From: a virus
Taxonomy: Duplodnaviria; Heunggongvirae; Uroviricota; Caudoviricetes
Virus record (IMG/VR): IMGVR_UViG_2700989234_000006
Reading direction: 5' to 3' (one strand)
DNA: 22,418 nucleotides
The position numbers were made by a program. Of this stretch, positions 3,001 through 6,000 are shown piece after piece (position 1 is the stretch's first letter; each line of letters begins with the position of its first letter).

Positions 3001-6000
3001 GTGGGCCGTCCGTCGATGGCAGAAGATCGCAGCACGGTGACGGCGACAACCGGCATGACTGTGACGCCTGCCAGCACCTCGGTGGTGAAAGGGCAGAGCA
3101 CCACGCTGACCGTGGCATTCCAGCCGGAAGGCGCAACCGACAAGAGCTTCCGTGCGGTGTCTGCGGATAAAACAAAAGCCACCGTGTCGGTCAGTGGTAT
3201 GACCATCACCGTGAAAGGTGTTGCTGCAGGCAAGGTCAACATTCCGGTCGTATCCGGTAATGGTGAACTTGCTGCGGTTGCAGAAATCACCGTCACCGCC
3301 AGTTAATCCGGGGAGTCAGAGATGTTCCTGAAAACCGAATCATTTGAACATAACGGTGTGACCGTCACGCTTTCTGAACTGTCAGCCCTGCAGCGTATTG
3401 AGCATCTCGCCCTGATGAAACGGCAGGCAGAACAGGCGGAGTCAGACAGCAACCGGAAGTTTACTGTGGAAGACGCCATCAGAACCGGCGCGTTTCTGGT
3501 GGCGATGTCCCTGTGGCATAACCATCCGAAGAAGACAAAGCTGCCTTCCATGAATGAAGCCGTTAAACAGATTGAGCAGGAAGTGCTTACCACCTGGCCC
3601 ACAGAGGCAATTTCTCATGCTGAAAACATGGTGTACCGGCTGTCCGGTATGTATGAGTTTGTGGTGAATGATGCTCCTGAACAGACAGAGGACGCCGGGC
3701 CTGCAGAGCCTGTTTCTGCGGGAAAGTGTTCGATGGTGAGCTGAGTTTTGCCCTGAAACTGGCGCGAGAGATGGGGCGACCCGACTGGCGTGCCATGCTT
3801 GCCGGGATGTCATCCACGGAGTATGCCGACTGGCACCGCTTTTACAGTACCCATTATTTTCATGATGTTCTGCTGGATATGCACTTTTCCGGGCTGACGT
3901 ACACCGTGCTCAGCCTGTTTTTCAGCGATCCGGATATGCATCCGCTGGATTTCAGTCTGCTGAACCGGCGTGAGGCTGACGAAGAGCCTGAAGATGATGT
4001 GCTGATGCAGAAAGCGGCAGGGCTTGCCGGAGGCGTCCGCTTTGGCCCGGACGGGAATGAAGTTATCCCCGCTTCCCCGGATGTGGCGGACATGACGGAG
4101 GATGACGTAATGCTGATGACAGTATCAGAAGGGATCGCAGGAGGAGTCCGGTATGGCTGAACCGGTAGGCGATCTGGTCGTTGATTTAAGTCTGGATGCG
4201 GCCAGATTTGACGAGCAGATGGCCAGAGTCAGGCGTCATTTTTCCGGTACGGAAACTGATGCGAAAAAAACAGCGGCAGTCGTTGAACAGTCGCTGAGCC
4301 GACAGGCGCTGGCTGCACAGAAAGCGGGGATTTCCGTCGGGCAGTATAAAGCCGCCATGCGTATGCTGCCTGCACAGTTCACCGACGTGGCCACGCAGCT
4401 TGCAGGCGGGCAAAGCCCGTGGCTGATCCTGCTGCAACAGGGGGGTCAGGTTAAGGACTCCTTCGGCGGGATGATCCCCATGTTCAGGGGGCTTGCCGGT
4501 GCGATCACCCTGCCGATGGTGGGGGCCACCTCGCTGGCGGTGGCGACCGGTGCGCTGGCGTATGCCTGGTATCAGGGCAACTCAACCCTGTCCGATTTCA
4601 ACAAAACGCTGGTCCTTTCCGGCAATCAGGCGGGACTGACGGCAGATCGTATGCTGGTCCTGTCCAGAGCCGGGCAGGCGGCAGGGCTGACGTTTAACCA
4701 GACCAGCGAGTCACTGACGGCGCTGGTGAATGCCGGTGTGCGTGGTGGTGAGCAGTTTGAGGCGATCAGCCAGAGTGTGGCGCGTTTCTCCTCTGCATCC
4801 GGCGTGGAGGTGGACAAGGTCGCTGAAGCCTTCGGGAAGCTGACCACAGACCCGACGTCGGGACTGACAGCGATGGCACGTCAGTTCCATAACGTGACGG
4901 CGGAGCAGATTGCGTATGTTGCTCAGTTGCAGCGTTCCGGAGATGAAGCCGGGGCATTGCAGGCGGCGAACGAGGCCGCAACGAAAGGGTTTGATGACCA
5001 GACCCGCCGCCTGAAAGAGAACATGGGCACGCTGGAGACCTGGGCAGACAGGACAGCACGGGCATTCAAATCCATGTGGGATTCGGTGCTGGATATTGGT
5101 CGCCCGGACACTGCCCAGGGAATGCTGGAGAAAGCAGAAAAGGCTTTTGATGAGGCGGACAAAAAATGGCAGTGGTATCAGAGCCGGAGCCACCGGCGCG
5201 GTAAAACCTCAGCATTTCTTGCCAATCTCCGGGGAGCATGGGAGGACAGAGCGAATGCGCAACTTGGGCTTTCAGCCGCCACGTTGCAGGCCGATCTTGA
5301 AAAGGCCAGAGAGATGGCAGCAAAGGACTGGGCCGAGTCTGAGGCATCACGGCTGAAATATACCGAAGAGGCGCAGAAGGCTTACGAACGGCTGCAGACC
5401 CCGCTGGAGAAATATACCGCCCGTCAGGAAGAACTGAACAAGGCACTGAAAGACGGGAAAATCCTGCAGGCGGATTACAACACGCTGATGGCGGCGGCGA
5501 AAAAGGATTATGAAGCGACGCTGAAAAAGCCGAAACAGTCCGGCGTGAAGGTGTCTGCGGGCGATCGTCAGGAAGACAGTGCTCATGCTGCCCTGCTGAC
5601 GCTTCAGGCTGAACTCCGGACGCTGGAGAAGCATGCCGGAGCAAATGAGAAAATCAGCCAGCAGCGCCGGGATTTGTGGAAGGCGGAGAGCCAGTTCGCG
5701 GTACTGGAGGAGGCGGCGCAACGTCGCCAGCTGTCTGCACAGGAGAAATCCCTGCTGGCGCATAAAGATGAGACGCTGGAGTACAAACGCCAGCTGGCTG
5801 CACTTGGCGACAAGGTTACGTATCAGGAGCGCCTGAACGCGCTGGCGCAGCAGGCGGATAAATTCGCACAGCAGCAACGGGCAAAACGGGCCGCCATTGA
5901 TGCGAAAAGCCGGGGGCTGACTGACCGGCAGGCAGAACGGGAAGCCACGGAACAGCGCCTGAAGGAACAGTATGGCGATAATCCGCTGGCGCTGAATAAC

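What the first reader, a model, noticed from the sequence alone, without database searches (positions are those of the whole stretch)
3700..3740. Conserved G/G-T programmed frameshift
The G GGA AAG heptamer lies in the correct phase near the end of G, and a long -1 ORF reaches the H start. This confirms that the tail chaperone mechanism is intact. It is a useful annotation point because automated callers usually miss T.
Basis: established knowledge. Interest (0 to 1): 0.2.

Follow-up and report, generated by a model that had tools for sequence, protein, structure and literature searches.

The report
Lambda G/GT tail-chaperone frameshift site
This is the well-known slippery site of phage lambda, where about 1 ribosome in 25-30 slips back one base near the end of tail gene G to make the fused G-T assembly chaperone; here it is intact in a lambda-like phage of E. 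coli, so it is real but ordinary.

Summary
GGGAAAG lies at 3720-3726. It is in the X XXY YYZ phase of gene G (3322-3744, 140 aa), 25 nt before G's stop. The -1 frame is open from 3681 to the TGA at 4158-4160. That stop overlaps the ATG of tape-measure gene H (4153) as ATGGCTGA.

G is an equivalog of lambda G (TIGR01674, PF06894). The -1 ORF is an equivalog of lambda T (TIGR01715, PF06223). The 839-nt G-T stretch is 98.1% identical to lambda 9711-10549. The T part is 100% identical in protein to lambda T.

Comparison with relatives supports frameshifting over separate initiation of T:
- The slip site holds its position in the divergent lambdoid phages sampled, while the heptamer varies (GGGAAAG, AAAAAAG, GGAAAAG).
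- Amino-acid conservation in the -1 frame starts at the slip site, upstream of any conserved start codon.
- All 80 related viral contigs carry the heptamer.

Similar sequence occurs in 3704 of 5426 complete E. coli genomes. This is a textbook feature (Levin 1993; Xu 2004, 2013, 2014) with no novelty.

What they usually miss is the G-T fusion.

The parts
3322..3744 (+). Gene G, tail assembly chaperone gpG (140 aa, 15.65 kDa), the 0-frame product
   Evidence: ORF. PF06894 E=5.7e-60. TIGR01674 equivalog, 215 bits against a cut-off of 74. 6 aa differences from lambda G.
3720..3726 (+). Slippery heptamer G GGA AAG (X XXY YYZ), site of the -1 ribosomal slip; encodes Gly-Lys in both frames
   Evidence: phase. 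Identical to lambda 10109-10115 in alignment A1. Present in 80/80 related viral contigs. Same position in most of the divergent lambdoids sampled.
3720..3744 (+). G/T overlap: the 0 frame reads GKCSMVS-stop, the -1 frame reads GKVFDGEL...
   Evidence: The C->T change at 3734 is T138M in G but synonymous in the T frame.
3726..4160 (+). T segment (-1 frame), translated only as the C-terminal half of gpGT; full product = join(3322..3726,3726..4160), 279 aa, 31.19 kDa
   Evidence: PF06223 E=2e-14. TIGR01715 equivalog, 189 bits against a cut-off of 77. T part 100% identical to lambda at protein level; the 3 nt differences downstream of G's stop are synonymous only in this frame. Masses.
4153..6732 (+). 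Gene H, tape measure protein (859 aa), binding partner of the G domains; its ATG overlaps the T stop (ATGGCTGA)
   Evidence: PF06791 and PF09718.
2566..3306 (+). Gene V, major tail tube protein (246 aa from ATG 2566), partner of the T domain
   Evidence: PF16461 + Big_2. ATG 2566 with a GAGG upstream. Length matches lambda V and the PGAP call in a related prophage.

Best explanation
This is the G/GT tail-assembly-chaperone recoding site of a lambda-like siphophage.

Ribosomes translating G normally terminate at 3742-3744 and make gpG (140 aa). At G GGA AAG, a small fraction slip one base back. In lambda this fraction is about 4%, giving a G:GT ratio near 30:1. The P-site tRNA-Gly re-pairs GGA->GGG and the A-site tRNA-Lys(mnm5s2UUU) re-pairs AAG->AAA. 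These ribosomes then read the -1 frame to 4158-4160 and make gpGT (279 aa).

Many gpG copies and a few gpGT coat the tape measure protein gpH. The T domain recruits the tube protein gpV, so the tube polymerises to the length set by gpH. Neither chaperone remains in the virion.

Shown here: site, phase, ORF geometry, family membership, near-identity to lambda, and comparative conservation of the slip position and of the -1-frame protein from the slip site onward.

Inferred from lambda experiments: the slip efficiency, the tRNA mechanics and the assembly role.
For: - Heptamer in phase and the -1 ORF open to the H start.
- G matches TIGR01674/PF06894 and T matches TIGR01715/PF06223, both far above their cut-offs.
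- 98.1% nt identity to lambda 9711-10549 (alignment). The heptamer is invariant, with only one substitution 18 nt upstream and one 8 nt downstream.
- The T part is identical to lambda T in protein. Substitutions after G's stop are 3/3 synonymous in the T frame and 0/3 in the other two frames.
- In divergent relatives (G 42-69% identical), a shift-prone heptamer sits exactly 25 nt before the G stop in all but Kp4865-4: GGGAAAG, AAAAAAG or GGAAAAG.
- The -1-frame peptide GK(V/A)(F/L)..EL.F.LKLARE.GRPDWRAMLAGM is conserved from the slip site onward. The first start codon in that frame is 11-25 codons downstream in every non-lambda-subgroup phage.
- 80/80 IMG/VR relatives carry GGGAAAG, and 76 of them have the full 146-codon extension.
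- Phage 434 and N15 records annotate the frameshift explicitly.
- Literature: PMC3296357 (GGGAAAG, 0 frame kept about 96% of the time, tRNA-Lys U34 thiolation tunes the ratio). PMC5009743 (30:1 ratio, G binds H, T binds V, G_GGA_AAG highly shift-prone in E. coli).
Against: - No direct expression data exist for this phage.
- The heptamer by itself occurs at chance frequency in the window.
- The 100 nt downstream folds no better than shuffled sequence (z = -0.57), so no stimulatory structure is evident. This fits a low-efficiency site but gives no extra support.
- The window differs from lambda at 3734, 8 nt 3' of the heptamer, which could in principle shift the efficiency slightly.
Confidence: 0.95

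Rival explanations
1. T is an independent gene, translated from its own start (GTG 3726 or ATG 3771), as most database records annotate it. No frameshift is involved.
For: A GTG lies in the T frame at 3726, and lambda RefSeq, ev099 and PGAP start T there. Other records start T at the next ATG.
Against: - The GTG exists only in the lambda subgroup. It is GTC, GCA or GCC in PhiR12_1/Stx2a, Stx1/VT1-Sakai and N15/phi80.
- The -1-frame amino-acid sequence is nevertheless conserved from the slip site through the 11-25 codons that precede the first ATG.
- The -1 frame opens only 13 codons upstream of the heptamer (stop at 3678-3680).
- The reviews read here describe the T sequence only as part of the gpGT fusion (PMC5009743, PMC3296357, citing Levin 1993).
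Confidence: 0.03
2. The -1 frame is reached by transcriptional slippage (RNA polymerase stuttering on the A run), not by ribosomal slippage.
For: Some relatives have a six-A run (AAAAAAG), and transcriptional slippage is used in other systems (PMC5009743).
Against: The site here has only three A's and three G's, which from general knowledge is too short for efficient polymerase slippage. In lambda the G:GT ratio responds to tRNA-Lys U34 modification (PMC3296357), which points to a ribosomal event.
Confidence: 0.01
3. The heptamer is a coincidence in a decaying prophage: G and T are relics and no GT is made.
For: GGGAAAG occurs at chance frequency. The window carries an IS element and a 5'-truncated int, so the element may not be a fully competent phage.
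Against: Every gene from FI to tfa is an uninterrupted ORF of lambda-like length. The T frame shows only synonymous change relative to lambda. Only 3 of 79 complete relatives have a shortened T frame, and this window is not one of them.
Confidence: 0.01

Closest known systems
Bacteriophage lambda genes G and T (gpG/gpGT), NC_001416 9711-10549
   Same: Same gene order V-G-T-H. Same lengths (G 140 aa, GT 279 aa). Same heptamer G GGA AAG at the same codons. Same ATGGCTGA overlap with H. 98.1% nt identity, and the T part is identical in protein.
   Different: 16 nucleotide differences. Six amino-acid changes in gpG: Q70K, Q73K, M74L, V103M, N117D and T138M, the last in the G-only tail. One synonymous T-frame change lies 8 nt 3' of the heptamer. 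This variant context is shared by 10 of 80 related viral contigs.
Escherichia phage phiSTEC1575-Stx2k and prophages in many E. coli genomes
   Same: 99.8% identical over the 839 nt. Similar sequence is present in 3704 of 5426 complete E. coli genomes, with a median of 2 copies per positive genome.
   Different: Essentially nothing at this locus. Those records annotate G and T as separate CDS.
Conserved tail-assembly-chaperone frameshift of long-tailed dsDNA phages (Xu, Hendrix & Duda 2004), e.g. N15 gp14/15, phi80 gp13/14, VT1-Sakai G/T
   Same: Two overlapping ORFs between the major tail gene and the tape measure gene. The slip site lies near the end of the first ORF, and the second ORF has no start of its own.
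   Different: Those phages use other heptamers (A AAA AAG, G GAA AAG), and their G proteins are only 42-46% identical.
IS3-family orfA/orfB -1 frameshift (also present in this window at about 18784-18863)
   Same: A -1 ribosomal frameshift on an A-rich lysine-codon slip site that yields a fusion protein.
   Different: The IS site is backed by a downstream ALIL pseudoknot (Rfam RF01497, 121.5 bits). The G/T site has no significant downstream structure.

Membership tests
Lambda-type G/GT tail assembly chaperone with programmed -1 frameshift | Two overlapping ORFs located between the major tail tube gene and the tape measure gene | tested here: met
   V 2566-3306, G 3322-3744, T frame to 4160, H 4153-6732.
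Lambda-type G/GT tail assembly chaperone with programmed -1 frameshift | The first ORF is a gpG-family chaperone | tested here: met
   PF06894 E=5.7e-60. TIGR01674 equivalog, 215 bits against a cut-off of 74.45.
Lambda-type G/GT tail assembly chaperone with programmed -1 frameshift | The second ORF, in the -1 frame, is a gpT-family domain | tested here: met
   PF06223 E=2.1e-14. TIGR01715 equivalog, 189.1 bits against a cut-off of 77.35.
Lambda-type G/GT tail assembly chaperone with programmed -1 frameshift | [quoted passage not shown] | tested here: met
   G GGA AAG at 3720-3726, phase 2, 25 nt before the end of G. G_GGA_AAG is listed as highly shift-prone in E. coli (PMC5009743).
Lambda-type G/GT tail assembly chaperone with programmed -1 frameshift | The second ORF has no conserved initiation site of its own, and coding conservation begins at the slip site | tested here: met
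   Alignment of -1-frame translations from 10 phages. GTG is present only in the lambda subgroup, and the first ATG is 11-25 codons downstream elsewhere.
Lambda-type G/GT tail assembly chaperone with programmed -1 frameshift | A G-T fusion protein is actually made at a low, fixed ratio (about 1:30) | not testable with these tools
   Known for lambda (Levin 1993, via PMC3296357 and PMC5009743). Here it is inferred from near-identity of the site and its flanks.
Lambda-type G/GT tail assembly chaperone with programmed -1 frameshift | gpG and gpGT are required for tail assembly, bind gpH (G part) and gpV (T part), and are absent from virions | not testable with these tools
   Literature only (Xu 2013/2014, as summarised in PMC5009743).
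Structure-stimulated -1 PRF (dnaX / IS3 / retroviral type) | Stable stem-loop or pseudoknot 5-9 nt downstream of the heptamer | tested here: not met
   3727-3826 folds at -34.4 kcal/mol against a shuffle mean of -32.5, z = -0.57. No Rfam family is hit at this site. The site is therefore not filed under this class.

The most novel reading that the evidence does not exclude
The C->T change at 3734, 8 nt 3' of the heptamer, is found in this window and in 10 of 80 relatives. It makes gpG end in CSMVS instead of CSTVS. It could measurably alter frameshift efficiency, and so the gpG:gpGT ratio, giving a natural allele that tunes tail-assembly stoichiometry.
Probability: 0.05. Interest if true: 0.15.

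Novelty: already known. Interest (0 to 1): 0.07.

Why it matters
Scientifically it adds nothing new. The lambda G/GT frameshift has been characterised since 1993 and similar sequence is present in about two thirds of complete E. coli genomes.

Its practical value is for annotation. The correct feature is a joined CDS, join(3322..3726,3726..4160), with ribosomal_slippage, in addition to G. A stand-alone 'T' starting at GTG 3726 or ATG 3771, as in most database records, is not correct. An intact site is also one indicator that the tail module of this element is functional.

Tried and rejected
- Heptamer frequency test: GGGAAAG is not enriched (3 found, 2.65 expected). Significance rests on context, not on the motif.
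- Downstream stimulatory RNA structure: none detectable (no Rfam hit at the site).
- Independent initiation of T: rejected because the GTG is not conserved while the peptide upstream of the first ATG is.
- Second + strand GGGAAAG at 7850: rejected as a slip site. It is out of phase and its -1 frame closes after 7 codons.
- Geometry scan of all XXXYYYZ heptamers: unique on the + strand. Two hits on the - strand fall in what are probably spurious antisense ORFs opposite tail genes in the L-to-I region, so geometry alone is not fully specific.
- The search for related loci with a divergent G alignment: returned only close relatives (96-99%) among the 80 loci kept. It gave population-level evidence rather than deep-divergence evidence. 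Deep divergence came from the phage records fetched by blastn.

Full report
**Observation**

The sequence at 3700-3745 reads ...CCT GTT TCT GCG GGA AAG TGT TCG ATG GTG AGC TGA.
- GGGAAAG occupies 3720-3726.
- Gene G is the ORF 3322-3744 (140 aa). (3720-3322) mod 3 = 2, so the heptamer is in the canonical X XXY YYZ phase (G GGA AAG). It starts 25 nt before the end of G's stop codon.
- The -1 frame (GGG AAA GTG TTC GAT ...) is closed by a TGA at 3678-3680. It is then open from 3681 to TGA 4158-4160, 146 codons beyond the slip.
- The ATG of the next gene is at 4153, so the T stop and the H start overlap as ATGGCTGA.

All elements of the observation are confirmed at the stated coordinates.

**Is it more than chance?**

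The motif alone is not: GGGAAAG occurs 3 times on both strands against 2.65 expected from shuffles. The context is what matters.
- Of 81 XXXYYYZ heptamers on the + strand, only this one combines three features: at least 80 open 0-frame codons upstream, a 0-frame stop within 30 codons, and at least 60 open -1-frame codons.
- The other + strand GGGAAAG (7850) is out of phase in its gene, and its -1 frame closes after 7 codons.
- Two - strand heptamers meet the geometric criteria, but they lie in what are probably spurious antisense ORFs. Geometry therefore needs the protein evidence below.

**What the ORFs are**
- G matches PF06894 (E = 5.7e-60) and the NCBIfam equivalog TIGR01674 phage_lambda_G (215 bits, cut-off 74).
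- The -1 ORF matches PF06223 (E = 2e-14) and the equivalog TIGR01715 phage_lam_T (189 bits, cut-off 77).
- The conceptual fusion carries both domains.
- Upstream is the lambda-type tube protein V (PF16461 + Big_2). Downstream is the tape measure H (PF06791 + PF09718).
- The window as a whole is a lambdoid late region: E (5' end cut by the window), FI, FII, Z, U, V, G, T, H, four ORFs in the positions of lambda M, L, K and I, J, lom, stf, tfa. After these come cargo genes, an att core and int.

**Comparison with lambda**

The 839-nt G-T stretch aligns without gaps to lambda NC_001416 9711-10549 at 98.1% identity. It is 99.8% identical to phiSTEC1575-Stx2k and to many E. coli prophages.
- The heptamer and its near flanks are invariant. 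The closest differences are 18 nt upstream (3702) and 8 nt downstream (3734).
- gpG differs from lambda gpG at 6 residues.
- The T part of gpGT is identical to lambda's.
- The 3 nucleotide differences downstream of G's stop are all synonymous in the T frame and all non-synonymous in the other two frames.
- The change at 3734, in the overlap, is synonymous in T but T138M in the G-only tail.

The T frame is therefore the frame under selection from the slip site onward.

**Comparative evidence that the -1 ORF is reached by slippage and not by initiation**

I fetched the locus from progressively more distant lambdoid phages, whose G proteins are 42-69% identical to this one.
- In all but one, a shift-prone heptamer ending in A AAG lies exactly 25 nt before the G stop.
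  - GGGAAAG: PhiR12_1, Stx2a phage, ev099.
  - AAAAAAG: Stx1 phage, VT1-Sakai.
  - GGAAAAG: N15 (annotated there as 'slippery sequence for -1 translational frameshift') and phi80.
- The exception, Klebsiella phage Kp4865-4, has GGAAAAG a few bases nearer its stop.
- The -1-frame translation is conserved directly from the slip site: GK(V/A)(F/L)..EL.F.LKLARE.GRPDWRAMLAGM...
- The GTG at 3726, which lambda RefSeq and PGAP use as the 'T start', exists only in the lambda subgroup.
- In the other phages the first possible start in that frame lies 11-25 codons downstream, inside the conserved peptide.
- At population level, 80 of 80 related IMG/VR contigs carry GGGAAAG. Seventy-six have the full 146-codon extension, three are shortened and one is cut by a contig end.

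**Mechanism**

Shown here: site, phase, frames, families and conservation.

Taken from lambda experiments:
- About 96% of ribosomes stay in frame and make gpG. About 4% slip back one base at GGGAAAG and make gpGT. The single tRNA-Lys(UUU) reads both AAG and AAA, and its U34 thiolation state tunes the ratio (PMC3296357, citing Levin et al. 1993).
- G_GGA_AAG is among the most shift-prone heptamers in E. coli. The required G:GT ratio is about 30:1. The G parts bind the tape measure gpH, the T part binds the tube protein gpV and recruits it, and neither protein is in the virion (PMC5009743, citing Levin 1993 and Xu, Hendrix & Duda 2004, 2013, 2014).

I found no downstream stimulatory structure. 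The 100 nt after the heptamer fold no better than shuffles (z = -0.57), and Rfam has no hit there. This fits a low-efficiency site driven by the heptamer. Predicted products are gpG (140 aa, 15.65 kDa) and gpGT (279 aa, 31.19 kDa).

**Rivals**
- Independent initiation of T is what most records imply, but the comparative data above contradict it.
- Transcriptional slippage is implausible on a run of three A's, and it is inconsistent with the tRNA-modification dependence reported for lambda.
- A relic site in a decaying prophage is unlikely, because all tail ORFs are uninterrupted and T shows purifying selection.

- 'Confirms the mechanism is intact' is a reasonable inference, not a demonstration.
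- 'Automated callers usually miss T' is imprecise. In 9 annotated records examined, T was always called but as a separate CDS in 7. Only phage 434 has a joined G-T CDS, and N15 flags the slip site.
- PGAP does write a joined 'programmed frameshift' CDS for an IS1 transposase, yet it leaves G and T separate.
- The proposed 'junction peptide' for mass spectrometry needs care. Gly-Lys is encoded in both frames and trypsin cuts after that Lys, so the junction is not spanned by a tryptic peptide. Glu-C would give PVSAGKVFDGE (GT) against PVSAGKCSMVS (G).

**Verdict**

This is a real and correctly identified feature, and it is entirely known. Similar sequence occurs in 3704 of 5426 complete E. coli genomes. 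Its value is limited to correct annotation: join(3322..3726,3726..4160). Novelty is 'already known' and interest is very low.

Noticed in passing
window 18412-19721 (slip region about 18783-18792; ALIL 18747-18863): An IS3-family insertion sequence with 25-nt terminal inverted repeats. It has orfA 18466-18792 (HTH_Tnp_1) and orfB 18789-19679 (rve) in the -1 frame. An A6 run at 18784-18789 is overlapped by an Rfam ALIL frameshift-stimulating pseudoknot (RF01497, 121.5 bits). This is a second, structure-assisted programmed -1 frameshift site in the same window. E. coli records call the element IS1203-like.
   Followed up: partly
window 17964-18401 (-): The Pfam match of this DUF892/YciE-YciF-type ferritin-like gene starts only at profile position 24, and its 5' end abuts the IS3-family element. 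The IS insertion has probably truncated it.
   Followed up: partly
window 17055-20326: A stress-type cargo cluster lies between tfa and the att core, where lambda has its b region. It comprises a manganese catalase (17055-17945, -) and two DUF892 ferritin-like genes. The E. coli matches add a con-10 general stress protein. GC content drops to 36-49% here, against 55-60% in the tail genes. It resembles a katN-yciEFG-like moron.
   Followed up: partly
window 21427-21441 and 21515-22327 (-): An exact lambda att core GCTTTTTTATACTAA is present, next to a lambda-type integrase. The integrase is recognisable only from about residue 93 of lambda Int (the lambda Int sequence is recalled from memory, not fetched). 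The frame upstream has stops, and homology to related phages ends at about 22312. The int gene therefore looks 5'-truncated or recombined, and the element may not be able to integrate or excise on its own.
   Followed up: partly
window 16697-16895 (+): A full-length Rfam hit to IS009 (RF02111, 227.9 bits) lies inside the tail fibre assembly gene tfa (16354-16935). It may simply reflect conservation of the coding sequence rather than a separate RNA.
   Followed up: no
window 7850-7856 (+): A second GGGAAAG, in ORF 7762-8505. It is out of phase (phase 1) and its -1 frame closes after 7 codons. It serves as a negative control for the G/T site.
   Followed up: yes
window 2536-3306 (+): The mechanical V ORF (256 aa) overlaps U and is annotated that way in phiSTEC1575. 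ATG 2566, preceded by GAGG, gives the lambda-length 246-aa V, as PGAP calls it in a related prophage.
   Followed up: yes
window 4153-6732 (+): The tape measure H is 859 aa against 853 aa in lambda, the same as in phiSTEC1575. From general knowledge that tail length scales with H length, the 6-residue difference should be negligible for tail length.
   Followed up: no
window 13277-16354 (+): The side tail fibre gene is a single uninterrupted 1025-aa ORF (phage_tail_N, fibre repeats, Collar). From memory, laboratory lambda PaPa has a frameshifted stf. AT skew is unusually high at 14001-15000 (0.39) and also at 5001-6000 in H (0.32). This is unexplained.
   Followed up: no
window 6956-8452 (-), 9735-11759 (-): Very long antisense ORFs (498 and 674 aa) lie opposite the tail genes around L-K-I and opposite J. 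They are most likely artefacts of GC-rich codon usage. They also produce false 'frameshift geometry' hits in the heptamer scan.
   Followed up: no
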